64,000 bases of DNA from Patescibacteria group bacterium (lineage in GTDB: Bacteria; Patescibacteriota; Patescibacteriia; 2-02-FULL-49-11). The notes beneath the pieces are model-generated. The model was not told the DNA's origin. It did not search any database and saw nothing but the letters and a program-made list of their open reading frames with translations. This document shows, piece by piece, positions 11,465 to 58,985 of the stretch (the stretch's first letter is position 1; each line of letters begins with the position of its first letter). Location of the stretch: the NCBI GenBank assembly GCA_041645165.1, contig JBAZQN010000009.1:4674-68673 (forward strand), read 5' to 3'. The position numbers and the translations under genes are program-made.

Positions 11465-11580
11465 CAAAACTCTAAATCCTAAACAAATCCAAATAACCAA
11501 ATCATCGAAACACGTTTTGAATTTGGTGCTTGTTTAGGATTTCGGATTTATCTGGCTACGCCAGATCTCGCGTAGCGAGA
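11465..11580. repeat. CCAAAT/ATTTGG long-hairpin intergenic element plus a gctacgc..gcgtagc hairpin module
   Basis: aaatcctaaacaa (11477-11489) pairs with ttgtttaggattt (11531-11543); the atttggtgcttg module is shared with 48731-48742. Confidence 0.5.
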
Positions 11581-22266: not shown

Positions 22267-23235
22267 ATGCAAAAGAGTTTTTATCGGAAAAGGCAGCACA
22301 TAGAAACTTCATGGGATGAGTCGGCGCAGTGGTACCACGGGCTGGTGGGCGAGAAGGGGATGGAGCTCCAAAGAGCGGTCGTGTTCCCACAGGCGCTTCG
22401 GTTGCTTCATTTGCAGCCTCACGAGAGGCTGCTTGATGTCGCGTGCGGGCAAGGCGCGTTTTGCCGGGAAGCGGTGCGTTATTGTAGAGAGATCGCAGGT
22501 ATAGATGCATCACCGCAGTTGATTGCATTAGCTCGCAATAATTTTTTATATCGGAATTCTAATCTTACATCCAAGGAAACCTCCCCTCACATCCCCTCCT
22601 TCGTAAGGAGGGGAGGGGGTGGTCTCGTTAATATATCAAAAAAAATTAAATATTATGTAGGCGACGCAAGGAAATTGCCAAAGGAAGTGGTAGGGGAGCG
22701 TTTTGACGCCATTTCATGCATACTTGCCATTTCAAATATTGATCCCATAAAACCCGTATTTGAAGAATGCAAGAAAATTTTAAAACCGTCAGGCCGCTTG
22801 GTGCTGGTGGTTGCGCACCCCTGTTTCCGCATCCCGCGGCAGAGCGGGTGGGGGTGGGACGAGCAGAGGAAGCTGCAGTACCGGAGGGTTGACCGCTATT
22901 TGAGTGAAATGAAAATTCCCATTCAAATGCATCCGGGAGGGCGTTCGCACGAGGTGACGTGGACATTTCATCGTCCGCTCGGGGTGTATATGCGCGCATT
23001 GACAGAAGCAGGTTTTGCTGTTGACGCGATGGAAGAATGGACTACCAACCGCAAAAGCACGCCCGGACCACGTGCGCGCGCAGACATGAATTCTAAACAG
23101 GAAATACCACTATTTTTAACGATGAGAGCAATCAGTGTTAATGTCAAAGCTCAAAGTTTCCCACCTCAGCGGGATCCCGCTTTCCTTGAGAATAAGAAAT
23201 CAAGGAGCGGGACAAATGCCATGGTTCGACAGTAG
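22267..23235 (+). CDS. class I SAM-dependent methyltransferase with an internal low-complexity insertion
   Basis: Motif I LDVACGQGAF; the insertion at 22578-22620 holds a perfect 9-bp-stem palindrome. Confidence 0.75.
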   Translation: MQKSFYRKRQHIETSWDESAQWYHGLVGEKGMELQRAVVFPQALRLLHLQPHERLLDVACGQGAFCREAVRYCREIAGIDASPQLIALARNNFLYRNSNLTSKETSPHIPSFVRRGGGGLVNISKKIKYYVGDARKLPKEVVGERFDAISCILAISNIDPIKPVFEECKKILKPSGRLVLVVAHPCFRIPRQSGWGWDEQRKLQYRRVDRYLSEMKIPIQMHPGGRSHEVTWTFHRPLGVYMRALTEAGFAVDAMEEWTTNRKSTPGPRARADMNSKQEIPLFLTMRAISVNVKAQSFPPQRDPAFLENKKSRSGTNAMVRQ

Positions 23236-23936: not shown

Positions 23937-24261
23937 ATAATTGTATAGGAATTTCAATAAGCGTTAAGTCGCATATCATGTGGCGACAGGTGGCTCCTTA
24001 TCCCATCAGTAGAGGCTAGTTTACACTAGCACCATGCCAGTTTACGCAACAAAAGTACGGAGTTTAATTTAGTGCATTATTTTTGAATTTTTGGTTTAAT
24101 GCAACTATGCCAAGTAATACTACATTCAAGAGGGAGGCAGGATCTATGCACTTATTTGTTGGGAATATAATTTAGCGAAAACATATTAGCCCTATAAAAT
24201 TCGCTCAGTAAAAGAAGAAAATATAAATTAAATTCACCCAAAGCATGGATATAATATAAAT

Positions 24262-24826
24262 ATGCGACGCAAAGGTTTTACCTTGATAGAATTATTAGTG
24301 GCGATCTCCACATCGGCCTTTTGGCGACTTTGGCCGTCACCAGCTTGAATAACGCCAGGGTTAAGGCCAGAGACGCGAGGAGATTGGGCGATATTGACAG
24401 CATCAAAAGGCGCTTGATCTAATGTATGATGATCACGGTAATTATGCGATATCATGCACCGGAACCAGAATTGCGACCTGTAATATGCAGCCGTATCTTG
24501 AGTCCGTAAATGTGCTCGATCCCTTAAAATCAACTACAGCGTGTAATGGCGCTAATTCAAGTGACTGCGATTATTCATTCTTATTTCGTTTACCCACTGG
24601 GCAACATTACTTAATTTATTTTCGCTTAGAGGGCGCAACCAGCCTTGGCAATAGCGGGCCGACAAATTGCGCGACTAATGAGGAAATGACTATTTGCGCC
24701 GATGATTTATCCATGGCTGGCTGTAATTTGAAAGATGTGTCTTACAATCCTGAGTGCGCTGTTGTTGATTTTGATAAAGATGGTATAATTAGCAGGGCGT
24801 CAGAACTTGCCGCTTATAGCCAATAA
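24262..24826 (+). pseudogene. disrupted type IV pilin-like gene, first member of the tandem array
   Basis: Intact prepilin N-terminus [13 protein letters not shown], then a 1-nt deletion frameshift near 24300-24316, an in-frame TAA at 24420-24422 and a second frame change; ORF 24422-24826 matches the C-terminal halves of the downstream paralogs. Confidence 0.6.
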
Positions 24827-24894
24827 ATATAATTTTTTAACCAATTTCCTTGAGAGTTTATTTATCGCTAACCCTAATACATAATACAAAAATT

Positions 24895-24970
24895 ATATGT
24901 TAGACATCAACAGATTCGCTCGGGAAAAGAAGCAATTAAAGTTCACCCAAAGTATGGGTATAAAATAAAT
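24895..24970 (+). promoter_or_regulatory. conserved about 76-nt pilin leader/promoter region, copy 1
   Basis: atatgttagacatcaacagattcgctcgggaaaagaagcaattaaagttcacccaaagtatgggtataaaataaat is nearly identical to 26241-26322 and partly conserved at 24200-24261; ends in a tataaaat -10-like box. Confidence 0.55.
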
Positions 24971-25561
24971 ATGCGACGCAAAGGTTTTACATTGATAGAG
25001 TTATTAGTTGTCACTAGCATTATTGGTTTGCTGGCAACTTCAGCCGTGGTAGCGCTAAATAATGCGAGGCAGAAAGCCAGAGATACGGCGCGGTTGAGTA
25101 CTGTAGATAAAATTAGAAAAATAATGTCATATAAACTTAATAATAATGATGTAAATTTTGGTTGCAGCGCTGTTGACACTACTTATCCGGTTTATACCTG
25201 TTCAACTTTTCCAGAATATGTGGCAAATTTAGAAACTTTTAAAGATCCGACTAAGCCAACAGAAGCGTGTAATGGCACAAATACAACTAATTGTAATTAC
25301 GCTTTTAATTATAATCCATACAGAGGAACAATCTATCTTTTATATTTTAGATTAGAAGGCCCAACCATTTTAGGCAATACTGGTGCGATTAATTGCGTTG
25401 CCACGCCAACAGGTATGGCTTGCGGGACTGATATTTCAATTTTTGGTTGTAGCAGTTCGTGCAGTGGGAGCTCAAACTGGAGCTATTGTTCTATATTTGA
25501 TTTTAACGGCAGTGGGTGCGTGGATGCAAACGATAGGTCTTATACTTGGAATAATAGATAA
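24971..25561 (+). CDS. type IV pilin-like protein (prepilin, class III signal), Cys-rich
   Basis: MRRKG|FTLIELLVV with Glu at +5; the N-terminal hydrophobic helix is followed by a Cys-rich globular domain. Confidence 0.8.
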
Positions 25562-25586
25562 TATTCTTTTATAAAACTTAATAAAT

Positions 25587-26198
25587 ATGCGACGCAAAGG
25601 TTTTACATTGATAGAGTTATTAGTTGTCACTGGCATTATTGGTTTGCTGGCAACTTTGGCCGTGGTGGCGCTAAATAATGCGAGGCAGAAAGCCAGGGAT
25701 ACTAAAAGATTAGTTGACATTAATGCTATTAGAAAAGCCATGGCTTTTAAATTTGATAATAATGAAGTTGGTGATTATCAGTGCGACGAGGCGCGCGGTC
25801 CAAGTAATGCTTGGGTTTTTCCAGTTTATACTTGTGATGGGCTTGCCTCTTATCTGCCAAGATTTGCTAATATTAAGGATCCTTTAAATACTGATAATCC
25901 TTGCGATGGAACTAATACAGATGGTTGTAATTATGCCTTTTATAACCCACCATATAGCGGTACTGCTTATTTAATTTATTTTCATTTAGAAGGTAGCACT
26001 AAGTTGGGTAACAGTGGTGCAGCTAATTGTGTGGCGACAGCTAGCAATTATTCATGTGCTGATAATGTCTCTTTTTTCTATTATTGCAGTAATACTTGTC
26101 AAGGTGATCAAAAGTGGCAGACATGTTCTATTTATGATGCTAATGGCAGTGGTTGCATTGACGCCAATGATAGATCATATTTTTGGAATAATAGATAA
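25587..26198 (+). CDS. type IV pilin-like protein, paralog 3
   Basis: Same prepilin N-terminus; about 97% identical to paralog 4; the 25-nt spacer after paralog 2 suggests co-transcription. Confidence 0.8.
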   Translation: MRRKGFTLIELLVVTGIIGLLATLAVVALNNARQKARDTKRLVDINAIRKAMAFKFDNNEVGDYQCDEARGPSNAWVFPVYTCDGLASYLPRFANIKDPLNTDNPCDGTNTDGCNYAFYNPPYSGTAYLIYFHLEGSTKLGNSGAANCVATASNYSCADNVSFFYYCSNTCQGDQKWQTCSIYDANGSGCIDANDRSYFWNNR

Positions 26199-26322: not shown

Positions 26323-26934
26323 ATGCGACATAAAGGTTTTACATTGATAGAGTTATTAGTTGTCACTGGCATTATTGGCTTGCTGGCAACTTTGGCCGTG
26401 GTGGCGCTAAATAATGCGAGGCAGAAAGCCAGGGATACTAAAAGATTAGTTGACATTAATGCTATTAGAAAAGCCATGGCTTTTAAATTTGATAATAATG
26501 AAGTTGGTGATTATCAGTGTGACGCGGCGCGCGGTCCCAGTGATATTTGGGTTTATCCAGTTTATACTTGTGATGGGCTTGCCTCTTATCTGCCAAGATT
26601 TGCTAATATTAAGGATCCTTTAAATACTGATAATCCTTGCGATGGAACTAATACAGATGGTTGTAATTACGCCTTTAATTCTCCACCATATAGCGGCACT
26701 GCTTACTTAATTTATTTTCATTTAGAAGGTAGCACTAAGTTGGGTAACAGTGGTGCAGCTAATTGTGTGGCGACAGCTAGCAATTATTCATGTGCTGATA
26801 ATGTTTCTTTTTTCTATTATTGCAGTAATACTTGTCAAGGTGATCAAAAGTGGCAGACATGTTCTATTTATGATGGCGATGGTAGTGGTTGCATTGACGC
26901 CAATGACAGATCATATTTTTGGAATAATAGATAA
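26323..26934 (+). CDS. type IV pilin-like protein, paralog 4
   Basis: MRHKG|FTLIELLVV; near-duplicate of paralog 3, with differences clustered in three short patches. Confidence 0.8.
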   Translation: MRHKGFTLIELLVVTGIIGLLATLAVVALNNARQKARDTKRLVDINAIRKAMAFKFDNNEVGDYQCDAARGPSDIWVYPVYTCDGLASYLPRFANIKDPLNTDNPCDGTNTDGCNYAFNSPPYSGTAYLIYFHLEGSTKLGNSGAANCVATASNYSCADNVSFFYYCSNTCQGDQKWQTCSIYDGDGSGCIDANDRSYFWNNR

Positions 26935-31140: not shown

Positions 31141-31290
31141 AAATGCAAAACGCAAAATCTCACCGCTTTAGCGGGATCCCGCATACCATTGAGATTAACA
31201 ATAAGGTGCGGGACAAAAGTCAAAATTATGGAGATACGACGTTACGTCGGATCGGAATACCTTCATTTTGATTTTTGAGTTTTGGTTTTT
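31141..31290. repeat. composite intergenic element, copy C: GGATCC-core hairpin inverted relative to copies A and B, plus the acgacgttacgtcgg module
   Basis: The reverse complement of 31141-31228 aligns at about 80% with 15668-15745; the module tatggagatacgacgttacgtcggatcgg matches 15617-15645. Confidence 0.6.
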
Positions 31291-31305
31291 GATTTAATTT
31301 AAGAT

Positions 31306-34467: not shown

Positions 34468-34611
34468 TTTATTATTTCGACATTTTACACTTTCCGCGTA
34501 GTTCCGCGTAACGTCGGCGTAAGTCCGCGTTAAAAACCTTATTATCGCAGACATACGCGGACTCCACGCAGACTGACGCAGACGATATGAACTGTAGGTT
34601 AATTTAATTTT

Positions 34612-35175: not shown

Positions 35176-35232
35176 CCCTAGACGCAGATATACGCAGATC
35201 AAAACGCAGATTAACGCAGATAGTGTAGAGTT
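35176..35232. repeat. four tandem-spaced ACGCAGAT motifs downstream of rpsI
   Basis: cctagacgcagatatacgcagatcaaaacgcagattaacgcagatag; the same 8-mer or its complement recurs at 34577-34600, 52890-52908 and 58834-58960. Confidence 0.5.
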
Positions 35233-35291: not shown

Positions 35292-36386
35292 GTGATGTCG
35301 GTACCGCAATTACCCAAAGGGAAAATATTATTGGTAACTACTGATTACCCGCCTGCGACAGGAGGGGTAGCGTGGTATTATGAAAATTTAGTGCGCAGAT
35401 TGAACGCTGCGGAGACCCCCTCCGTCTCCCCCATGGCAAGGGAGAGATTCAGAGGAGGTGATGCGAGAGTTGTAGTATTATTGTTGGGTCGATGGACGCT
35501 CACGCCATGGTGGCCGTTATTGATATTTCCCTTATTACTTAAAACTATTAAACTTAAAACTGATGTCTGGTGGGTGGGGCAGGTGCTGCCAGTGGGTACG
35601 GTGGTATGGCTGTTATCACATCTTTGGCCTAAATATTATATTGTTTCAACACATGGCATGGACGTGCTTTTGCCTTTGTATTCCCCAAGGAAGCGATGGC
35701 TCATGAAGCGTATATTAAACCGCGCCACATTGATTACTACAAACAGCGAATGGACGAAGCAAAAAATTATTGAAAATTATTTTTCAAGGAACAAGGAACA
35801 AGGAACAAGAAACAAAATTGAGGTAATATATCCTGAACCGAAACCGAAACGAAAGGCGGCGCGTGAAGAGATTTTAGCGTTGCGGACAAGGCTGGGAATC
35901 CCTCATGATGCGAAAGTCTTACTGACGGTGAGCAGGCTTGTGGCGCGAAAAGGAATTGATTGCGTATTGCGCGCATTGCCGGAGGTATGGCGCCGTTCGC
36001 CCCATCTTCATTATGTGATTGTGGGAGAAGGCGACCAGTTGCCAGTTTATCAGTCCATAGTTTATCAGTTGGCGCCATCCGTAGGGGTGAATGGCCATTT
36101 ATCCATACACTTTGTCGGGAAGGCGAGCGACGAGGAGTTGGCGGTTTATTATTCTTTGGCGGATGAATTTATTTTATTACCGCGAGAATCTCACGGCGAT
36201 GTGGAAGGATTCGGCATTGTATTTTTAGAAGCGGATCAGTACCATGTACCAATTATTGCAACACTTTCTGGAGGCACGGGAGAGGCATTGCAAAAATGCA
36301 AGCAGGTGACTGTTGTTCATGATCCTTTCAATATTCACGAGGTAGCAAATGCAATTATATCAAATCTTAAACCTATTGATGGTTAA
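35292..36386 (+). CDS. family-4 glycosyltransferase
   Basis: GT-B fold with the EGFGIVFLEA motif; 364 aa. Confidence 0.8.
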   Translation: MMSVPQLPKGKILLVTTDYPPATGGVAWYYENLVRRLNAAETPSVSPMARERFRGGDARVVVLLLGRWTLTPWWPLLIFPLLLKTIKLKTDVWWVGQVLPVGTVVWLLSHLWPKYYIVSTHGMDVLLPLYSPRKRWLMKRILNRATLITTNSEWTKQKIIENYFSRNKEQGTRNKIEVIYPEPKPKRKAAREEILALRTRLGIPHDAKVLLTVSRLVARKGIDCVLRALPEVWRRSPHLHYVIVGEGDQLPVYQSIVYQLAPSVGVNGHLSIHFVGKASDEELAVYYSLADEFILLPRESHGDVEGFGIVFLEADQYHVPIIATLSGGTGEALQKCKQVTVVHDPFNIHEVANAIISNLKPIDG

Positions 36387-36392
36387 TGTGCT

Positions 36393-37163
36393 ATGGATAC
36401 AATTTCAATAATAATCCCCGCCTTTAACATGCAGCGTGCGCTTGCGCGCTGTAGTGTGCATGTTGCGGAACAAACTCTAAAACCCTCGGAGGTTATTATT
36501 GTTGACGACGGTTCAATCGATGGAACTGCCATATGGGCAGAAGAAGCAAGGCGTACATTACCCTTTGAGGTCAGCGTACTGACACAAGACCATCGGGGGG
36601 CATCAGCAGCCCGTAATTGTGGATTTAAACAATCTCACGGCACACTGGTCGTATTTCTTGATGCGGATGTGATATTGAAAAAACACGCGTTGGAAAGGTT
36701 GTATATATCGTTAAATCAAAAATCAAAAATCTCCGCCCAAGGCGGATCCGCCTCAGGCGGAAAAAATCAAAATTTAGGAGTAGGTTATGCCTACAGTTCA
36801 TTTAGATGGGGGCGGAAGAAGTTCCCTTCCTACCCTTTTGATGCAGCTCGCTTGCGCCAGATGCCCTATATCCATACTACCTCCCTGATAAAACGCGAAA
36901 CGCTCCCGGAGAATCCATTTGATGAACAATTAAAACGGCTGCAGGATTGGGATCTTTACCTCACGCTTCTTGAACGGGGTACCATAGGTGCCTATGTGCC
37001 GGAAATTCTATTTACCGTGGAAACAAAAGGCACCATGAGCCGTTGGTTGCCGTCCATCATGTACCAGATACCTTTTACCAAGTTTGGCATGAATATTTCG
37101 AGACTTAATAAGTACCGCGAAGCAGAACAAATTATTAAAACGAAACACAAGCTTAATAATTGA
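36393..37163 (+). CDS. family-2 glycosyltransferase carrying an in-frame 30-nt palindromic insertion
   Basis: IIVDDGSIDGT...FLDADV; the segment encoding SAQGGSASGG coincides with the repeat at 36732-36761. Confidence 0.75.
   Translation: MDTISIIIPAFNMQRALARCSVHVAEQTLKPSEVIIVDDGSIDGTAIWAEEARRTLPFEVSVLTQDHRGASAARNCGFKQSHGTLVVFLDADVILKKHALERLYISLNQKSKISAQGGSASGGKNQNLGVGYAYSSFRWGRKKFPSYPFDAARLRQMPYIHTTSLIKRETLPENPFDEQLKRLQDWDLYLTLLERGTIGAYVPEILFTVETKGTMSRWLPSIMYQIPFTKFGMNISRLNKYREAEQIIKTKHKLNN
36732..36761. repeat. 30-nt GGATCC-centred double-hairpin element, copy 1, inside the GT2 CDS and in-frame
   Basis: tccgcccaaggcggatccgcctcaggcgga flanked by aaaaatc / aaaaaatc; second copy at 47579-47608. 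Confidence 0.55.
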
Positions 37164-37211: not shown

Positions 37212-38222
37212 ATGTATTCTATAGGTATGGGTAATCTAAAAAAGATGAAAAGAATTGCACACAGAACCGAGAAGGTTCTGTTATTCGTTCGTGAATTGTC
37301 TAGTATTTCAAAAAAGGATATTGCTCTTGCAGGTGGGAAGGGGGCAAGTTTGGGTGATTTGATGCGGGCGGGGCTGCCGGTACCCGCTGGATTCGTAGTG
37401 ACAGCAGCGGCATTTGATCGGTTTCTGGAAGAAAATGAATTGCTTGAAGATATCGATGCGCAATTAAGCAGAGTGAATTATAAAGATACGAATTCAATTG
37501 ATCGTGCATCAAATGTGATTCGTGCGCTTATCCTTGAGGCTCCGTTTCCTAAAGACCTGCGGCAGGAAGTTATAAAATTTTTTGGCACACTTAATACTTC
37601 CTTCGTGGCAGTGCGCAGCAGCGCGACTGCGGAGGATTCAAAGACGGCAAGCTGGGCAGGGGAGTTGGAGACTTATTTAAATACTATTGCAAAGACATTA
37701 TTTGCGAATATCCAAAAATGCTGGGCGTCGCTTTTTAGCCCACGAGCGATTTTTTACCGTCATGAGAAGCGATTGCACCGCGTGAAAGTGTCAGTTGCGG
37801 TTGTCGTGCAGGCGATGGTCGAGTCAGAGGTTGCCGGAATCGCATTTACGGTGCATCCGGTGACGAAAGACAAAAATCAAATGATTATAGAAGCAGGGTG
37901 GGGATTGGGGGAAGCGGTGGTGTCCGGCCAGATTACCCCTGATTCGTATGTGCTGCATAAAAAAGATTATTCAGTAATAGATCTCCATACTGCCAGACAA
38001 GAAAAAAAACTTGTACGCAATCAAAAAGGAAATGGCGACTGTTGGGTTTCTGTACCTAAAAAACTACGGACAAAGCAAAAGCTTACGACTGCACAAATAA
38101 AAACATTAGCGGAGCTCTGTATGCGCGTCGAGCGCCATGAGCGATTTCCTTGCGACATTGAGTGGGCATTAGTCCGTGGCAAGTTTTACCTGCTCCAGAG
38201 CAGACCTATCACAACCTTATGA
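37212..38222 (+). CDS. stand-alone PEP-utilising-enzyme N-terminal ATP-grasp domain protein (PPDK_N / PpsA N-domain only)
   Basis: ALAGGKGASLGDLMRAGLPVPAGFVV..; 336 aa and ends where the PpsA/PPDK mobile His domain would begin. Confidence 0.7.
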   Translation: MYSIGMGNLKKMKRIAHRTEKVLLFVRELSSISKKDIALAGGKGASLGDLMRAGLPVPAGFVVTAAAFDRFLEENELLEDIDAQLSRVNYKDTNSIDRASNVIRALILEAPFPKDLRQEVIKFFGTLNTSFVAVRSSATAEDSKTASWAGELETYLNTIAKTLFANIQKCWASLFSPRAIFYRHEKRLHRVKVSVAVVVQAMVESEVAGIAFTVHPVTKDKNQMIIEAGWGLGEAVVSGQITPDSYVLHKKDYSVIDLHTARQEKKLVRNQKGNGDCWVSVPKKLRTKQKLTTAQIKTLAELCMRVERHERFPCDIEWALVRGKFYLLQSRPITTL

Positions 38223-38224
38223 CT

Positions 38225-38530
38225 ATGCCCAGTTATACAACTTCCCATATGTTCTTTTATGTCTATGTACTACAAAGTATAAAGGATAATAATAAATACA
38301 TAGGGTATACGAATAACCTGAAAAGGAGACTGGAAGAACATAGGAAAGGCTTAAATTTTGCAACAAAGTTTAGACTACCATTTAAACTCATTTACTTCGA
38401 AGGATGTCTTAATATAAACGACGCCAAACGCCGTGAACATTATCTGAAAGGAACTCAAGGCCGGAGATTCCTAGGTCTGCGACTACAGGAATACACTCGC
38501 AGTAAACCAGCGTTTGGCGTGGGAAGTTGA
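38225..38530 (+). CDS. GIY-YIG nuclease-domain protein
   Basis: FYVYVLQS..KYIGYTNNLKRRLEEHRKG matches GIY-YIG; the start is uncertain (ATG at 38225 or 38249; the ORF-track GTG at 38162 overlaps the upstream gene). Confidence 0.65.
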   Translation: MPSYTTSHMFFYVYVLQSIKDNNKYIGYTNNLKRRLEEHRKGLNFATKFRLPFKLIYFEGCLNINDAKRREHYLKGTQGRRFLGLRLQEYTRSKPAFGVGS

Positions 38531-41204: not shown

Positions 41205-41372
41205 AATGTCCCAATTTCCAATCTCCAATATCAAATTAATGTCCAATGCCCAACGAATGATTAAATGCCTGAATGGCCAGTTTGATGTTTTATGAATTGG
41301 GTTTTCAGCCGAAGGCTGGTCCGCCTCTGGCGTGATATTGGAAATTGGTCATTGGGGTTTGGGATTTTTCAC
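41205..41372. repeat. CCAAT/ATTGG long inverted repeat upstream of the GT2 gene
   Basis: Left arm gtcccaatttccaatctccaatatcaaattaatgtccaatgcccaa (41209-41254); right arm ttggtcattggggtttgggattt (41345-41367). Confidence 0.45.
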
Positions 41373-41379
41373 CTTAAAT

Positions 41380-42370: not shown

Positions 42371-43189
42371 ATGTATCTTTCCATAATTATCTTGAACTAT
42401 AAAAAAATCAATCTGGTGCGGCAGCAACTCCGTTCATTAGACGAGCTCCATCTGCCATTTTCTTATGAAACAATTGTGGTTGATAATGCGTCAGGCGATC
42501 GTATAGAGACGCTTTCAAAAGAGTTTCCCAACGTTCTGGCATTGCCGCTTACATGGAATTGCGGAATGGGCGCAGGGAATAATACCGGCCTGAAACGCGC
42601 GCAAGGAGAATATGTGCTGATCCTTAACCCTGATGTCATCCTGTTGCCGCGCGCGATTGAAACGCTCTGCGAATACCTTTCAAAGTCACCGCGGGTCGGT
42701 ATGGCAGGACCAAAATTGCTAAACCCTGACCAGACTCTCCAATACAGCTGTTTCCGTTTTCCGCGCTGGTATACCCCTTTTTTTCGAAGAACAAAACTGT
42801 CGCATTTCAGCGCTGGCAAAAGTGAACTGGACCGTTTCTTAATGCGCGAATGGGATCATAATGATATCCGCTCCGTCGAATGGCTGCAGGGTTCTGCGTT
42901 TCTTGTGCGGCGCAATGCGCTCGAGGAGGTTGGTTTATTTGATGAGCGATTTTTTCTTTTTTTTGAAGATACGGACTGGTGCCGGCGTTTTTGGCAGAAG
43001 CATTGGGAGGTGGCGTATGTGCCAGATGCGGTTATGGTCCACTATCCGCAGCGACTTTCATCGTTTGACGGGATCTGGACTTTTTTTAACCGGCTCACCT
43101 GGATCCATATATCCTCATGGGTCAAATATTTTTGGAAGTGGAGAAACCAGAGGTTAAATCCCAATGACCAATTCCCAATGACCAATTAG
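42371..43189 (+). CDS. family-2 glycosyltransferase
   Basis: IVVDNASGD..LNPDV; its 3' end overlaps the first CCAAT-repeat arm. Confidence 0.8.
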   Translation: MYLSIIILNYKKINLVRQQLRSLDELHLPFSYETIVVDNASGDRIETLSKEFPNVLALPLTWNCGMGAGNNTGLKRAQGEYVLILNPDVILLPRAIETLCEYLSKSPRVGMAGPKLLNPDQTLQYSCFRFPRWYTPFFRRTKLSHFSAGKSELDRFLMREWDHNDIRSVEWLQGSAFLVRRNALEEVGLFDERFFLFFEDTDWCRRFWQKHWEVAYVPDAVMVHYPQRLSSFDGIWTFFNRLTWIHISSWVKYFWKWRNQRLNPNDQFPMTN

Positions 43190-43245
43190 TGACGCGGATT
43201 CGTATATTGCGAAGTTTGGGATTTGGAATTTGTAATTTGGAATTT
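43156..43245. repeat. CCAAT/ATTGG long inverted repeat
   Basis: aaatcccaatgaccaattcccaatgaccaatt (43156-43187) faces tttgggatttggaatttgtaatttggaattt (43215-43245). Confidence 0.55.
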
Positions 43246-47269: not shown

Positions 47270-47575
47270 ACGGTCATAAGGTGAATAGGACGGATAAGTC
47301 GTAATAGGGTGGATAGGTCGGATAAGATTGTAAGTCGGAATAGGGCAGATAAGGCAAATAGGGTGGGTGAGTCGTGATTAGGGCGGATAAGTTGGAAAGG
47401 TTGGATAAATTAAATTGGACTGGTGGGTTGGATAGGTTAATGTATTGAGATAATAGTTTGTTTATTTTTGACGAAAGGGGGATTTTTATGTATAGTAAAG
47501 ACACTGAATGAGCACTGAATTGGTTGTGGTGTAACACTGAAATGACACTGAAGTTGAGACACTGAAGTTATGAGT
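47270..47575. repeat. low-complexity tandem repeats: G-rich GGATAAG/GGATAGG units, then five CACTGAA units
   Basis: ggataagtcg, ggataggtcg, ggcagataag, gggcggataag... followed by acactgaatgagcactgaat..cactgaaatgacactgaagttgagacactgaag. Confidence 0.45.
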
Positions 47576-47578
47576 TTT

Positions 47579-47608
47579 TCCGCCCGAGGCGGATCCGCCT
47601 TTGGCGGA
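47579..47608. repeat. 30-nt GGATCC-centred double-hairpin element, copy 2 (intergenic, 26 nt upstream of mreB)
   Basis: tccgcccgaggcggatccgcctttggcgga flanked by gagtttt / gagtt. Confidence 0.55.
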
Positions 47609-47633
47609 GAGTTCTAAGTTTTGAGTTCCTGTT

Positions 47634-48641
47634 ATGTTCATCAAGAGAATCGGGATTGATTTGGGTACGACGTATACGCTGGTGTATGTGCCCACGAAAG
47701 GTATTGTAATCAATGAACCTTCGGTGGTGGCGCATTCGCTTTCGGACCGTAGGGTGCTCGCGGTTGGGGAGGAAGCCAAGGAAATGATCGGCCGCACGCC
47801 TGACACGATTGTGGCGTCCCGGCCATTGAAAGATGGCGTGATCGCGGATTACCGCACCACAGAAGCTATGCTGCGGTATTTTATTAATAAAGCCATTGGC
47901 GGCGTGCGGCTTTTTAGGCCTGAAGTTATGGTTGCGGTGCCCGCAGGCATCACTTCCACGGAGCGCCGTGCCGTTATTGACGCAACAATAGCCGCAGGCG
48001 CGAAAACCGCCTATCTCATCAAGGAACCGATTGCCGCCGCCATTGGCGCAAAAATCCCTATTGGTTCAGCATCCGGCCATATGATTGTGGACACAGGAGG
48101 AGGCACTTCTGAAGTCGCAGTCATATCGCTCGGCGGTATAGTGGCCAATACTTCTATGCGCACCGGCGGCAACAGGTTTGACAGCGCTATCACAGAGTTC
48201 ATCAGGCGCAAGTATAACCTTGCGATAGGCGAGCGCACCGCGGAAGACATCAAGATTTCCATAGGTTCTGCATTGTTTCTTGAAAAAAAGCTTTCTATGA
48301 ATGTGCGCGGCCGCGACACGGTCACCGGTCTTCCCCGTACCATTACCGTAACCTCGGACGACGTGACGGAAGCAATTCAGCATGAGCTGGAAACTGTCAT
48401 TTCCGCAGTGAAATCCGTGTTTGCAGCAACACCGCCAGAGCTATGCGCTGACGTGATTGATAAAGGCATGGTGCTCTCAGGCGGCAGCTCTTTGTTAAGA
48501 AACATCGACAAGCTGCTCTCCCAAGCGACGGGTGTGCCTTCCTATGTGGCAGATGAACCGCTGCTGTGCGTCGCGCGCGGCACTGGGGTGGCGCTTGATA
48601 ATTTAGATGCGTATAAGAGGAGCATACTCGCTACGCGATAG
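47634..48641 (+). CDS. mreB: rod shape-determining protein MreB (actin-like ATPase), paralog 1
   Basis: IGIDLGTTYTLVYV..GIVINEPSVVA.. with phosphate-1/2 and adenosine motifs. Confidence 0.9.
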   Translation: MFIKRIGIDLGTTYTLVYVPTKGIVINEPSVVAHSLSDRRVLAVGEEAKEMIGRTPDTIVASRPLKDGVIADYRTTEAMLRYFINKAIGGVRLFRPEVMVAVPAGITSTERRAVIDATIAAGAKTAYLIKEPIAAAIGAKIPIGSASGHMIVDTGGGTSEVAVISLGGIVANTSMRTGGNRFDSAITEFIRRKYNLAIGERTAEDIKISIGSALFLEKKLSMNVRGRDTVTGLPRTITVTSDDVTEAIQHELETVISAVKSVFAATPPELCADVIDKGMVLSGGSSLLRNIDKLLSQATGVPSYVADEPLLCVARGTGVALDNLDAYKRSILATR

Positions 48642-48648
48642 ATCGCGT

Positions 48649-48755
48649 AAATCCCAATGCCCAATGCCCAATAAAATTCCAAATCCCAATATCCAAATCA
48701 TAAATACCCTTCGACAGGCTCAGGGTGACAATTTGGTGCTTGCAATTTGGAATTT
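48649..48755. repeat. CCAAT/ATTTGG long inverted repeat plus the adjacent gctacgc..agatc..gcgta module
   Basis: aaattccaaat (48675-48685) faces aatttggaattt (48744-48755); atttggtgcttg is shared with 11521-11532. Confidence 0.5.
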
Positions 48756-50730: not shown

Positions 50731-50839
50731 TGTCGGAGATTGTCTCCGACCAATCGGTGGCAGACAAGCTGCCACGCTACACGATTTCTTAATTCTTCAT
50801 TCTACATTCTAAATTCATATTTTTTAATTCTCATATTGT

Positions 50840-56819: not shown

Positions 56820-58751
56820 TTGGCGTTGGATATTGATATTCTGGGTATGCAACCTGATCCATTGTTTGGCCCGCAAGAACTATCCTATAAAGGAAGGTCA
56901 TCCCATACGCAGCAAGGATATGACGTTGATTCTCCTCTGCCGCAGGAATCAAAATCTGCCCTTACCCCTCCTCTGTCCCGCAATGCGCTCCGTGTAATGA
57001 CTTTAGCAATGTTCGCGATAGGCATAGTATTTTTTTTTCGCATTATCTATCTCGAAATTATTAAAGGGAGCGAATACCGTGCGGTGTCTGAAGAGAACAG
57101 GCTGCGCGTCGAATGGATTCCTGCAGTACGGGGGTTAATTTATGACCGGCAGGGGAATGCATTGGTATCAAATGAACCGCAATTAAGTCTCCTGCTCTTT
57201 CCTAAATTGTTACCCGCGGACGCATTGAAAAGAAAAGAAATGGCAGCGCTTCTTAAACGCCTTGAGCCGCGCATTGATGAAGCAACCACTTTTGCGATTA
57301 CCGATCCAAGCAATGCGCTGGGCGCTTCTGTGCCGCTTCTTGATTCGCTTGATCGCCAGAATGCGGTAAAAATAATGGCATATAGCGATCAGTTGCCTGG
57401 CATCCAAGTGGAAACTGCGCTTATGAGGTTTACCAAAGAGGGAGAATCGCTTTCGCACGCAGTAGGATTCATGGGACGCATTGATCCAGAATCGTTTAAA
57501 CGCTTGGAAGCGCACCCTAAGCAGTATCAGCAGAATGATTTTATTGGCAAGACGGGCATAGAACAGTATTATGAAGAGACGCTGCGCGGAATGCCAGGGA
57601 GAAGAGTGGTGGAGGTGGATGCGCGGGGGGAGACGAAAGCAACCATCGCGGAAGAATCACCTGTGCACGGTACGGACCTTACCCTCAGTATTTCTGTTTC
57701 GCTCCAGGATGCCCTTTTCAACGCGCTTACGCGCGAGGTGCGCGTTTGCAATAGTCCCGGTGGCGCCGCAGTGGCTTTAGATCCCAGAAATGGCGAAATC
57801 CTTGCACTGGTAAGCGCCCCATCTTTTAATGCGCATACTTTTGCAGGTGGAGACGCCACCTATACCCGTTCTATTATTGAAGACACGCAATACCCTCTTT
57901 TTAACCGGGCCATCGCCGGCCAATATCCCACCGGTTCCATAATTAAACCGATTTTTGCGGCAGCAGCACTCAATGAAGGAATAGTAACTCCTTCTACGGT
58001 CATATCTTCCACAGGAGGGTTGAAAGTGGGTGCATGGTTTTTTCCTGACTGGAAGGCGGGCGGCCATGGATTGGTGACCTTGCGGGGCGCATTGGCAGAA
58101 TCCGTGAACACGTATTTCTATATTATTGGCGGAGGATATGAGGACCAAGAAGGATTAGGGGTCGAACGCATGGCACGGTATGCAGGCGCGTTTGGTTTGG
58201 GTGATCAAACGCATCTAGACCTATTCGGCGAGGCCACAGGATTTCTTCCTACACCGCAATGGAAAGAAGATGCCAAAGGAGAGCCATGGTATATTGGCGA
58301 TACGTACCACTTTGCGATCGGACAAGGGGATGTGCTTGCCACCCCGCTCCAAATGGCGATCATGACTGCGGTATTTGCCAATGGGGGAAACGTGGTAATA
58401 CCTCATCTTTTACAGAATGGCACCAAATCATATATTAAAGAAAATCTTCTCACGAGCGGAGTATTAAATAATAATGCGATCGATGAAGTGAAGAAAGGCC
58501 TTGTGGAAACGGTACGTACAGGGAGCGCTAGGTCACTCGCGGGTTTTCCGGTGCCTATAGCCGGCAAAACAGGAACTGCCCAAATTGGAGGAGATGCGTC
58601 TCCTCATGCCTGGTTTACCGCGTATGCGCCAGCAGACGCGCCGGAAATCGTCATAACAGTCATTGTAGAGCAAGGAGGGGAGGGGAGCGCAGCGGCGGTT
58701 CCCGTGGCCAGGGACGGCTTTTTGTGGTGGTACCAGCAGAGAAATGATTGA
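56820..58751 (+). CDS. mrdA: penicillin-binding protein 2 (class B transpeptidase)
   Basis: SxxK GSIIKP, SxN ESVNT and KTG GKTGTA, after an N-terminal TM and dimerisation domain. Confidence 0.85.
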   Translation: MALDIDILGMQPDPLFGPQELSYKGRSSHTQQGYDVDSPLPQESKSALTPPLSRNALRVMTLAMFAIGIVFFFRIIYLEIIKGSEYRAVSEENRLRVEWIPAVRGLIYDRQGNALVSNEPQLSLLLFPKLLPADALKRKEMAALLKRLEPRIDEATTFAITDPSNALGASVPLLDSLDRQNAVKIMAYSDQLPGIQVETALMRFTKEGESLSHAVGFMGRIDPESFKRLEAHPKQYQQNDFIGKTGIEQYYEETLRGMPGRRVVEVDARGETKATIAEESPVHGTDLTLSISVSLQDALFNALTREVRVCNSPGGAAVALDPRNGEILALVSAPSFNAHTFAGGDATYTRSIIEDTQYPLFNRAIAGQYPTGSIIKPIFAAAALNEGIVTPSTVISSTGGLKVGAWFFPDWKAGGHGLVTLRGALAESVNTYFYIIGGGYEDQEGLGVERMARYAGAFGLGDQTHLDLFGEATGFLPTPQWKEDAKGEPWYIGDTYHFAIGQGDVLATPLQMAIMTAVFANGGNVVIPHLLQNGTKSYIKENLLTSGVLNNNAIDEVKKGLVETVRTGSARSLAGFPVPIAGKTGTAQIGGDASPHAWFTAYAPADAPEIVITVIVEQGGEGSAAAVPVARDGFLWWYQQRND

Positions 58752-58985
58752 TGAGTTTTGATTTATGATTTATGATGATATCTAGACAGGTGAATAAATC
58801 GTAGAGCTTAATTAGACAGTAGAAGAATATCTGCGTACACCTGCCCGCCATAGCCTTTCCCCTAGGAATATCGCGCCCATGGTGTTGCATCTGAATATTG
58901 AGACTGCATTTGTTGATTATAGACAGGCGTAGGCAGGCGGGTCTGCGTGAATACTTTTCATTGAATTATTCTACGTTCTCATAAT

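What the first reader, a model, noticed from the sequence alone, without database searches (positions are those of the whole stretch)
36732..36761. 30-nt GGATCC-centred double-hairpin element present twice, once inserted in-frame in a glycosyltransferase CDS
tccgcccaaggcggatccgcctcaggcgga at 36732-36761 and tccgcccgaggcggatccgcctttggcgga at 47579-47608 are about 90% identical and centre on the perfect 12-nt palindrome ggcggatccgcc. Each can fold as two adjacent hairpins. Copy 2 is intergenic, just upstream of mreB. Copy 1 lies inside the GT2 gene 36393-37163, is exactly 30 nt (ten codons, SAQGGSASGG) and is flanked by aaaaatc/aaaaaatc, which resembles a short target-site duplication. This looks like a miniature mobile palindromic element that tolerates in-frame insertion into a protein loop.
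Basis: seen in the sequence. Interest (0 to 1): 0.55.

Follow-up and report, generated by a model that had tools for sequence, protein, structure and literature searches.

The report
Tiny 30-nt double-hairpin insertion element
The 30-base sequence is real and belongs to a very small, apparently mobile DNA repeat made of two 15-base hairpins, found in over a hundred uncultured bacterial species from many phyla; it survives inside genes because it reads as a harmless ten-residue Ser/Ala/Gly linker on either strand.

Summary
The 30-mers at 36732-36761 (in frame in a GT2 gene) and 47579-47608 (25 nt upstream of mreB) are exactly as described.

They are not a private oddity. The same 30-mer occurs in at least 108 species-level MAGs, mostly Patescibacteria/CPR but also Omnitrophota, PVC phyla, Ignavibacteria, Chloroflexota and others. 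A degenerate scan shows a modular family: two abutting 15-nt hairpins (6-bp stem, 3-nt loop; loops NRA then TYN). The stems covary (TCCGCC, TCAGCC, CCAGCC, TCGGCC, CCCGCC and others) and combine freely. The GGATCC centre is therefore incidental to the TCCGCC/TCCGCC combination.

GT2 orthologues lack the ten codons, and removing exactly 30 nt restores their sequence, so this is a clean insertion.

The supposed target-site duplication is not one. The loop is a 7-nt tandem array with the same unit count in orthologues that lack the element.

Copies inside genes are overwhelmingly in the one frame that gives S-A-x-G-G-S-A-x-G-G (79 of 99), including in TsaD, DnaJ and tRNA synthetases.

Preferred sites are T(T/C)|(A/G)A at heptamer-unit boundaries and at hairpin apices, tRNA loops included.

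The closest analogues are the cyanobacterial "small dispersed repeats", mitochondrial double-hairpin elements and Rickettsia palindromic elements. The mobilising mechanism is unknown.

The parts
36732..36761 (.). Double-hairpin element, copy 1 (TCCGCC-caa-GGCGGA + TCCGCC-tca-GGCGGA). It sits in frame 0 of the GT2 gene and encodes SAQGGSASGG.
   Evidence: It is absent from orthologues, and removing exactly 30 nt restores their sequence. The DNA-parameter fold is a double hairpin at -12.8 kcal/mol, z = -5.7.
36713..36775 (+). Heptanucleotide tandem array (CAAAAAT x about 4.3), split at a unit boundary by copy 1. It encodes the loop residues NQKSKI...KNQN.
   Evidence: TRF found period 7 at 36713-36731. 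The orthologous loops L126 (CAAAACT) and L125 (CAACAAT) carry arrays with the same unit count and no element.
36393..37163 (+). Host gene: family-2 glycosyltransferase.
47579..47608 (.). Double-hairpin element, copy 2 (TCCGCC-cga-GGCGGA + TCCGCC-ttt-GGCGGA). It is intergenic, 25 nt upstream of the mreB ATG.
47500..47630 (+). Short-period repeats flanking copy 2: ACACTGAA-type units upstream, and GAGTTTT / GAGTTCT / AAGTTTT / GAGTTCC heptamers on both sides.
   Evidence: (lag-7 match 0.60).
47634..48641 (+). mreB gene downstream of copy 2.
   Evidence: PF06723, E = 4.7e-132.
11551..11580 (.). Family member with different stems (TCTGGC-tac-GCCAGA + TCTCGC-gta-GCGAGA). It is intergenic, 24 nt upstream of an acetate kinase gene, between TTTAGGA/TTTCGGA heptamers.
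41305..41334 (.). Degenerate family member (TCAGCC-gaa-GGCTGG + TCCGCC-tct-GGCGTG). It lies between inverted CCAAT-type heptamer arrays, upstream of a second GT2 gene.

Best explanation
The two 30-mers are copies of a very small, non-coding, insertional (mobile or formerly mobile) repeat.

Anatomy. The unit is a 15-nt GC-rich hairpin with a 6-bp stem and a 3-nt loop. The element is two such units abutted head to head, so that on either strand the 5' hairpin has an NRA loop and the 3' hairpin has a TYN loop.

Insertion. The element enters as exactly 30 bp, with no obligatory target duplication. It prefers T(T/C)|(A/G)A sites, especially at unit boundaries of heptanucleotide tandem arrays and at the apex of other hairpins (tRNA D-, anticodon- and T-loops, and longer palindromes).

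Survival inside genes. The length is 30 nt and the sequence is pseudo-palindromic. The TCCGCC type therefore reads S-A-x-G-G-S-A-x-G-G in one frame on either strand. Purifying selection leaves almost only that frame inside genes, in surface loops and linkers.

What is shown: the insertion, the family, the hairpin covariation, the frame bias and the site preference.

What is inferred: that the element is moved in trans as single-stranded DNA hairpins, either by a structure-specific enzyme (for example a RAYT/IS200-like HUH protein or a hairpin-recognising recombinase) or by replication template switching. No enzyme was identified.
For: (1) Insertion. Close GT2 orthologues lack the 10 residues. 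At the DNA level, the window minus exactly 30 nt aligns codon for codon with L125 and L126.

(2) A second clean case. In a TsaD homologue (L111), SARGGSASGG aligns to a 10-residue gap in E. coli TsaD, PDB 4ydu.

(3) Dispersal. These are about 108 different MAGs from many phyla, including contigs longer than 1 Mb.

(4) Structure. In the degenerate scan, complementarity was not imposed at three stem positions per hairpin. Even so, 120 of 138 matches are perfectly paired in both hairpins, against a chance rate of 1/256. On alignment A2 both stems are 99.3% paired, with UA/CG and CG/AU/GC/UA exchanges. The single long-hairpin model leaves about 50 of 135 cells unpaired at the variable columns.

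(5) Strand type. DNA energy parameters give the double hairpin as the minimum-energy fold. RNA parameters give the long hairpin.

(6) Selection inside genes. Frames are 79:6:14 among 99 in-ORF copies, and 62:4:12 in the stricter set. The TCAGCC type, which puts TGA in that frame, is depleted in ORFs (5/23 versus 73/145, p = 0.013) and never occurs in frame 0. 46% of copies lie in long ORFs, against 64% of random positions.

(7) Site preference. T is 82% at -2 and A is 76% at +2. Flanks agree as 7-nt direct repeats at 0.384 versus 0.290 in controls, z = 9.6. 12 of 117 copies sit in heptamer arrays, against 0.8% of control positions.

(8) tRNA loops. In L203 the tRNA-Leu is found only after the element is deleted. 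L086, L187 and L248 show further tRNA-loop cases.

(9) No linked gene. No protein family recurs near copies (at most 8 of about 250 loci), as expected for a non-autonomous element.
Against: - No filled-versus-empty polymorphism between near-identical strains was seen, so recent movement is not demonstrated.
- The loop is hypervariable among orthologues, so replacement rather than simple insertion cannot be excluded at this one site.
- Two pairs of orthologous genes from different species carry the element at the same site (L149/L169, L082/L196). The stems are 24/24 identical while the flanks are only 69-77% identical. This fits conservation in place or gene conversion as well as it fits repeated insertion.
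- No transposase, autonomous partner or conserved terminal tag was found.
- The identity of the stems across phyla is hard to explain for an ordinary genome-bound repeat.
- All hits are MAGs. Some taxonomic labels, such as 'uncultured Gammaproteobacteria', were not verified.
Confidence: 0.7

Rival explanations
1. It is a conserved functional nucleic-acid motif rather than selfish mobile DNA. The double hairpin would be maintained by selection as a binding site or structural signal, for example for a hairpin-binding protein, for mRNA 5'-end stabilisation or processing, or for replication or transcription pausing. It would spread by occasional transfer and gene conversion.
For: - Stems are invariant while loops and flanks diverge in orthologous copies.
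- There is strong covariation.
- Copies are enriched 10-30 nt upstream of start codons: 23 observed versus 6.8 expected from random positions. Three intergenic window copies lie 24, 25 and 45 nt upstream of an ATG.
- Several copies lie next to tRNA genes.
Against: - About 40-46% of copies lie inside unrelated protein-coding genes at unconserved positions, where they are plainly insertions.
- Copies are nested in other repeats and in broken tRNA fragments.
- No gene family or position is shared between loci.
- The start-codon control was not restricted to intergenic DNA, and short spacers in compact genomes could produce that enrichment by themselves.
Confidence: 0.15
2. It is a classical MITE: abutted terminal inverted repeats of an insertion sequence, moved by that element's DDE transposase with a 7-bp target-site duplication. 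The heptamer arrays would be accumulated excision footprints.
For: - The two halves are inverted copies of one another in loop type.
- Perfect 7-nt direct repeats flank copy 1 (AAAAATC) and other copies, such as L034 AGGATTT and L062 AAAAGTC.
- There is a register-7 signal at z = 9.6.
- Arrays inside genes have about 4.3 units, which is one unit plus three extra and so stays in frame.
Against: - At the GT2 site the array has the same unit count with and without the element, so this insertion made no duplication.
- About 80% of copies have no flanking direct repeat of 5 nt or more.
- The stems covary within each half, which is a hairpin constraint rather than a transposase-binding sequence.
- The two halves carry different stems in two thirds of members.
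- No longer element bounded by single units, and no linked transposase, was seen.
Confidence: 0.08
3. There is no element: the match is chance, an assembly or sequencing artefact, or a Gly/Ser/Ala linker that converged at the protein level.
For: - All genome hits are metagenome-assembled genomes.
- GGC GGA TCC is also a common synthetic GGS/BamHI linker in cloning primers.
Against: - The count is far above chance.
- The element is present in assemblies from many laboratories, including megabase long-read contigs (L029, L073, L012).
- About half the copies are intergenic.
- Synonymous positions in the stems are invariant while flanking codons diverge.
- Hairpin complementarity holds across different stems.
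Confidence: 0.02

Closest known systems
Small dispersed repeats SDR4-6 of Nostocaceae (Elhai et al. 2008, Genome Res 18:1484; recalled from memory because the paper was not held; cited in PMC4390886 and PMC5861425)
   Same: Both are far smaller than any MITE (21-27 nt there, 30 nt here) and non-coding. From memory, the SDRs form hairpins, insert precisely without target duplication, and are nested in tandem heptameric repeats and in other repeats. SDR5 inserts at a fixed position inside a short palindrome (HIP1), as stated in PMC4390886.
   Different: [quoted passage not shown] This family spans CPR and at least ten other phyla, and no cyanobacterium was among the hits. It has a fixed two-hairpin architecture with covarying stems, and it shows a strong reading-frame signature inside genes. 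Sequence relatedness to the SDRs could not be tested.
Mitochondrial double-hairpin elements and GC clusters (Allomyces and other fungi, yeasts; literature found)
   Same: Both are short GC-rich elements that fold into two adjacent hairpins. They are dispersed in AT-richer genomes and occur in intergenic regions, and sometimes inside coding or rRNA genes. The mobilising enzyme is unknown in both cases.
   Different: Those are organellar, lineage-specific, longer and variable in size. The element here is bacterial, exactly 30 nt, and has identical stems across phyla.
Rickettsia palindromic elements (RPE) (own knowledge)
   Same: Both are palindromic repeats inserted in frame into protein-coding genes, including essential ones. 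They add a peptide segment at surface positions without destroying the protein.
   Different: RPEs are about 100-150 bp, are restricted to Rickettsia, and add 30-50 residues. This element adds 10 residues and encodes the same peptide in both orientations.
REP / REPIN elements with RAYT transposases (PMC3116915, PMC3733652)
   Same: Both consist of short GC-rich hairpins arranged as inverted pairs. They are non-autonomous and are presumed to be handled as single-stranded DNA hairpins by an enzyme acting in trans.
   Different: REPs carry a conserved unpaired GTAG or CGTC tag, are essentially extragenic, reach tens to hundreds of copies, and are species-specific. Here there is no such tag (the flanks are TT...AA), nearly half the copies are inside genes, and the same stems recur across phyla.

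Membership tests
MITE | Target-site duplication of fixed length made at insertion | tested here: not met
   At the GT2 site, removing exactly 30 nt restores the orthologous array with the same unit count. Only 24 of 115 copies have a flanking direct repeat of 5 nt or more.
MITE | Terminal inverted repeats matching those of an autonomous insertion sequence; size about 50-500 bp | tested here: not met
   The element is 30 nt. The halves are inverted in loop type, but two thirds of members have different stems in the two halves. No longer element bounded by single units, and no recurrent transposase, was found near about 250 loci. Whole genomes could not be searched.
REP/REPIN-RAYT | Short GC-rich hairpin units, often in inverted pairs | tested here: met
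REP/REPIN-RAYT | Conserved unpaired 5' tetranucleotide tag (GTAG or CGTC) | tested here: not met
   The flank consensus is tTT|element|AAa, with no GTAG or CGTC.
REP/REPIN-RAYT | Extragenic location | tested here: not met
   46% of copies lie inside long ORFs.
REP/REPIN-RAYT | A RAYT (Y1 HUH) gene in the same genome, usually flanked by the repeats | not tested
   Only 64 kb of the source genome and 2-15 kb loci were available. No family recurs near copies.
Cyanobacterial SDR (Elhai 2008) | Dispersed repeat shorter than about 30 nt, hairpin-forming, inserted precisely without duplication | tested here: met
   The size is 30 nt against 21-27 nt for the SDRs.
Cyanobacterial SDR (Elhai 2008) | Nested within tandem heptameric repeats and within other repeats | tested here: met
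Cyanobacterial SDR (Elhai 2008) | Sequence similarity to the SDR4/5/6 consensus; Nostocaceae host | not testable with these tools
   The paper and its consensus sequences were not held. None of the 120 GTDB hits is a cyanobacterium.
Mitochondrial double-hairpin elements | Two adjacent hairpins, dispersed copies, also inside genes | tested here: met
   The host compartment (organelle) is obviously not met.
Intrinsic transcription terminator | GC-rich hairpin followed by a T run on the transcribed strand | tested here: not met
   The hairpins are preceded by T and followed by A on both strands, and many copies lie inside ORFs.
Iterated palindrome or restriction-modification site (HIP1-like, GGATCC) | The short palindrome itself is the conserved, over-represented unit | tested here: not met
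   GGATCC is present only in TCCGCC/TCCGCC combinations, which are 40 of 120 perfect members in the unbiased scan.
CRISPR repeat | Regularly spaced array of repeats with unique spacers | tested here: not met
   Copies are single and dispersed.
Rfam structured RNA | Match to a curated covariance model | tested here: not met
   Only tRNA matches and sub-threshold chance microRNA matches were returned.

The most novel reading that the evidence does not exclude
The 15-nt hairpin module may be an undescribed, pan-bacterial class of ultra-small mobile DNA. It would cross phylum boundaries, home to single-stranded hairpin loops (including tRNA loops) and to heptamer-array boundaries, and move by a mechanism that does not depend on an element-encoded protein or uses an as yet unrecognised enzyme. 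It may itself generate the heptanucleotide arrays. It has been shaped so that both orientations encode a benign flexible linker, which would make it a recurrent source of loop and linker insertions in essential proteins of streamlined genomes.
Probability: 0.3. Interest if true: 0.85.

Novelty: new variant of a known kind. Interest (0 to 1): 0.66.

Why it matters
If confirmed, this element is far below the usual size of mobile DNA. It would extend the poorly understood 'very small mobile repeat' phenomenon from one cyanobacterial family to the Candidate Phyla Radiation and many other uncultured lineages.

It offers a simple sequence signature (YCNSCC-NRA-GGSNGR + YCNSCC-TYN-GGSNGR) with which several things can be tested directly:
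- its mobility;
- its host range;
- any co-occurring enzyme;
- its link to heptanucleotide arrays.

On the practical side, it explains a recurrent 10-residue SAxGGSAxGG insertion in annotated proteins, some broken tRNA-like fragments, and a class of hairpins that could be mistaken for regulatory RNAs or terminators in MAG annotation.

Tried and rejected
- Literature search for the 12-mer returned only cloning primers.
- Rfam found no family in the window or in eight loci.
- The Elhai 2008 paper could not be read. A search on 'heptameric' was uninformative, and other literature searches found no description of this element.
- P0003 could not be located on a contig.
- Clustering all ORFs of 100 aa or more from about 250 loci found no recurrent neighbouring gene, so there is no transposase candidate.
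- The flanking T/A runs do not covary, so they are not a closing stem.
- BLAST against PLSDB plasmids and INPHARED phages gave only chance partial matches.
- Viral contigs hold few copies: 2 exact-stem loci and 9 from the degenerate pattern. Phages are therefore not an obvious reservoir.
- I considered and rejected several readings, for the reasons given in the membership table: terminator, CRISPR repeat, a restriction or methylation site centred on GGATCC, a recombinase core site (the stems covary within each half), and a protein-level convergent linker.

Full report
**Observation**

The two 30-mers are present exactly as reported. They differ at three positions, all in the 3-nt loops. Each is two abutting perfect hairpins: TCCGCC-NNN-GGCGGA, twice.

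The 12-mer GGCGGATCCGCC occurs only at these two sites. A scan for any perfect 6+3+6 / 6+3+6 double hairpin finds three in the window, against about 0.004 expected (my arithmetic). The third, at 11551-11580, has unrelated stems (TCTGGC/TCTCGC). A decayed copy lies at 41305-41334.

Copy 1 is in frame in a Pfam-confirmed GT2 gene. Copy 2 is 25 nt upstream of mreB.

**Is copy 1 an insertion?**

Yes. In an alignment of 22 homologues, the close orthologues P0003, P0005-P0007 and P0012 lack the ten residues.

At the DNA level, the window with exactly 30 nt removed aligns codon for codon with two orthologues:
- Window without the element: ...caa aaa tca aaa atc | aaa aat caa aat tta...
- L126: ...caa aac tca aaa ctc aaa act caa aat tta...
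- L125: ...caa caa tca aca atc aac aat caa cat tta...

This also settles the proposed target-site duplication. In all three genes the loop is a heptanucleotide tandem array (CAAAAAT, CAAAACT or CAACAAT, three full units plus a partial one). The unit count is the same with and without the element. The AAAAATC on each side is therefore array sequence, not a duplication made by this insertion.

The nearest orthologue (L123) carries a different nested C7/G7 hairpin at the same loop, and L124 has yet another sequence there. This loop is a hot spot for small repeats.

**Distribution**

Nearly all matches are exactly 30 nt.

All are MAGs, from about 108 different assemblies. By my count of the record titles:
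- about 62 loci are Patescibacteria/CPR;
- 10 are Omnitrophota;
- 12 are PVC phyla (Kiritimatiellae, Lentisphaerae, Planctomycetes, Verrucomicrobiota);
- 4 are Ignavibacteria/Bacteroidota;
- the rest include Chloroflexota, Firmicutes, Margulisbacteria and others.

Several hits lie on contigs longer than 1 Mb. Two hosts carry the element inside what look like type IX secretion C-terminal sorting sequences (NYPNPF|...|NPST; my own knowledge). That fits a Bacteroidota/Ignavibacteria-type host and argues against mis-binning.

Viral contigs hold few copies. PLSDB plasmids and GenBank phages hold none.

**Family and structure**

Relaxed searches showed variants with compensatory stem changes. I then scanned metagenomes and viral contigs with YCNSCCNRAGGSNGRYCNSCCTYNGGSNGR. 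This pattern leaves three stem positions per hairpin free and does not impose pairing.

Of 138 matches, 120 are perfectly complementary in both hairpins and 16 have one mismatch. The chance rate for perfect pairing is 1/256.

The stems include TCCGCC, TCAGCC, CCAGCC, TCGGCC, CCCGCC, TCTGCC, TCACCC and TCGCCC, and the two hairpins combine freely. Only 40 of the 120 are TCCGCC/TCCGCC, so the GGATCC centre is incidental.

On a 135-sequence alignment, the two-hairpin model is 99.3% paired in both stems, with UA/CG and CG/AU/GC/UA exchanges. A single 30-nt hairpin leaves about 50 of 135 cells unpaired at the variable columns.

The loops follow a rule: NRA in the first hairpin and TYN in the second, on either strand. 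The element is therefore a head-to-head pair of oriented units. The two loops are otherwise nearly independent: 23 of 115 are exact complements, against about 15 expected (my arithmetic on the counts).

DNA energy parameters give the double hairpin as the minimum-energy fold (-12.8 kcal/mol; z = -5.7 and -4.8). RNA parameters prefer the long hairpin. This weakly favours a single-stranded DNA form.

Single units also occur alone, and rare three-unit runs exist.

**Coding context**

Among perfect copies lying well inside long ORFs, 79 of 99 are in the frame that reads S-A-[K/E/Q/G/R]-G-G-S-A-[S/F/L]-G-G. In a stricter set the frames are 62:4:12. Because the element is pseudo-palindromic and 30 nt long, both orientations give this peptide.

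Variants with TCAGCC stems put a TGA in that frame. They are depleted in ORFs (5/23 versus 73/145, p = 0.013) and never occur in frame 0. Copies are moderately depleted from ORFs overall: 46% against 64% of random positions. These are signatures of purifying selection acting on an insertion process that does not itself respect the reading frame.

The hosts are ordinary and often essential proteins:
- A TsaD homologue, where the ten residues align to a clean gap in E. coli TsaD (4ydu).
- Three independent hits in what look like DnaJ proteins (J-domain HPD motif followed by a Gly/Phe-rich stretch; my reading of the translations).
- What look like an AspRS-like and a ValRS-like synthetase (my reading of the flanking peptide motifs).

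Two pairs of orthologous genes from different species carry the element at the same site (L149/L169 and L082/L196). The stems are 24/24 identical, while the flanks are 69-77% identical and the loops differ. Either the stems are constrained at the nucleotide level, or the site is hit repeatedly.

**Target sites**

The flank consensus is tTT|element|AAa: T is 82% at -2 and A is 76% at +2. The two flanks do not covary, so they are not a closing stem.

Flanks agree as direct repeats in a 7-nt register (0.384 versus 0.290, z = 9.6). 12 of 117 copies sit exactly at a unit boundary inside a heptamer tandem array, against 0.8% of control positions. The window itself is rich in period-7 arrays, both intergenic and inside the neighbouring GT4 gene.

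Other copies sit at the apex of longer palindromes (L035, L076, L148, L188, L190).

Several copies sit in tRNA loops:
- In L203 the element lies between T34 and A35 of a tRNA-Leu(TAA). ARAGORN finds the tRNA only after the 30 nt are deleted.
- In L086 it lies in the T-loop of a partial tRNA-Ser copy.
- In L248, L187, L194 and L152 it lies in the D-loop of a partial tRNA copy; L168 shows a weaker D-loop-like flank (CAGTT|GGTAG).
- In L187, L248, L203, L202 and L086 the adjoining flank (15-25 nt) recurs 24-70 nt away on the other side of the element; in the four tRNA cases the repeat lies in an intact tRNA gene.

These [A][element][spacer][A] arrangements suggest that insertion can be accompanied by variable local duplication.

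**Mechanism**

Shown: precise 30-nt insertion, no obligatory duplication, hairpin-level constraint, a head-to-head unit arrangement, a preference for T(T/C)|(A/G)A in loops and array boundaries, and no linked gene.

Inferred: the element moves in trans through single-stranded DNA hairpins. This could be by a structure-specific enzyme (RAYT/IS200-like HUH or a hairpin-recognising recombinase), or by replication template switching at stalled hairpins and slippage-prone arrays. Template switching would also account for the variable duplications. I could not identify an enzyme.

Whether the heptamer arrays are the preferred target or footprints of insertion-excision cycles is open. The equal unit count at the GT2 site argues against a duplication at that event.

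**Comparison with known elements**

The closest analogue is the set of small dispersed repeats of Nostocaceae. From memory of Elhai et al. 2008, these are 21-27 nt, hairpin-forming, and nested in tandem heptameric repeats. That SDR5 inserts precisely inside HIP1, and that no SDR-like repeat was found outside Nostocaceae, are stated in PMC4390886 and PMC5861425.

The element also resembles:
- mitochondrial double-hairpin elements;
- Rickettsia palindromic elements, in being inserted in frame (own knowledge);
- REP/REPIN elements, in being paired hairpins.

It fails the defining tests for a MITE (no target-site duplication, no matching insertion sequence), for REP (no GTAG/CGTC tag, not extragenic), for a terminator, for a CRISPR repeat, and for an iterated restriction-type palindrome. 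Rfam has no matching family.

**Verdict**

This is a real element, not chance and not an artefact. The target-site duplication and the GGATCC emphasis do not.

I found no description of this family in the searchable literature. I classify it as a new variant of a known kind (very small hairpin repeats). What is unusual about it:
- its cross-phylum spread;
- its fixed two-hairpin architecture;
- its orientation-independent linker coding.

Noticed in passing
window 31266-31295, 35537-35561, 35785-35815, 41205-41253, 43161-43245, 48653-48696, 50786-50831, 58744-58776: There are many heptanucleotide tandem arrays of about 4-7 units. Most are intergenic. Two lie inside the GT4 gene 35292-36386; one of them, CAAGGAA x4.4, encodes SRNKEQGTRNK. 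Some occur as inverted pairs of arrays flanking a short centre upstream of a gene (43161-43245; 41205-41375). Similar heptamers (AGGATTT/AAATCCT, CCAATnn) recur in unrelated MAGs, for example L034, L110 and L006.
   Followed up: partly
window 34493-34583 and 35182-35222: There are tandem arrays with a period of about 10 nt in the spacers on either side of the S9 gene: TCCGCGTAAG-type units, then their reverse complement ACGCGGAC/ACGCAGAC, and later ACGCAGATnn x4. Together the first two form a long imperfect palindrome built of repeats.
   Followed up: no
window 47284-47392: An imperfect 18-nt-period array (AATAGGGCGGATAAGTCGT, x5.8) lies upstream of the mreB leader, ahead of the ACACTGAA repeats and copy 2.
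   Followed up: no
window 22592-22614 and 23168-23181: Two other GC-rich palindromes are present. TCCCCTCCTT-cgt-AAGGAGGGGA is of the same C-run/G-run hairpin type that hosts the element in L076, L188 and L190 and that fills the GT2 loop in L123. AGCGGGATCCCGCT is another GGATCC-centred 14-mer.
   Followed up: no
window 25733-25748 and 26469-26484: An identical 16-nt palindrome AAAAGCCATGGCTTTT with identical flanks (gctattag...aaatttga) occurs twice, 736 nt apart, in the lowest-GC part of the window (38% GC, 24001-26000). It looks like part of a longer direct repeat.
   Followed up: no
L203 2425-2454 and 2658-2687; L248 3282; L187 8234; L194 1973; L152 2245; L086 1730; L168 4044 (weaker): Double-hairpin elements sit in the anticodon-, D- or T-loop of partial tRNA copies that lie 24-70 nt from an intact tRNA gene. 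In L187, L248, L203 and L086 the adjoining 17-25 nt is repeated in that gene. One tRNA-Leu(TAA) is interrupted between T34 and A35, the position I recall as the site of the classical cyanobacterial group I intron (own knowledge).
   Followed up: partly
L005 4569-4752 and 6390-6572; L051 around 7325: In a Kiritimatiellae MAG the element is embedded in a longer repeat of about 185 nt that contains a ...GTCATTCCGAGCG... motif. A decayed second copy lies alongside at L005 4778.
   Followed up: partly
window 47579 (25 nt), 11551 (24 nt), 41305 (45 nt), and 23 loci: Intergenic copies are often 10-30 nt upstream of the ATG of a long ORF: 23 observed versus 6.8 expected from random positions. The control was not limited to intergenic DNA, so this may only reflect short spacers in compact genomes.
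   Followed up: partly
window 38162-38530: A small ORF whose N-terminal motif (YVYVL...KYIGYTNNL...R..EH) looks like a GIY-YIG (URI) nuclease domain lies 1.4 kb downstream of copy 1. This is judged by eye only and was not scanned against Pfam. No link to the element was found.
   Followed up: no
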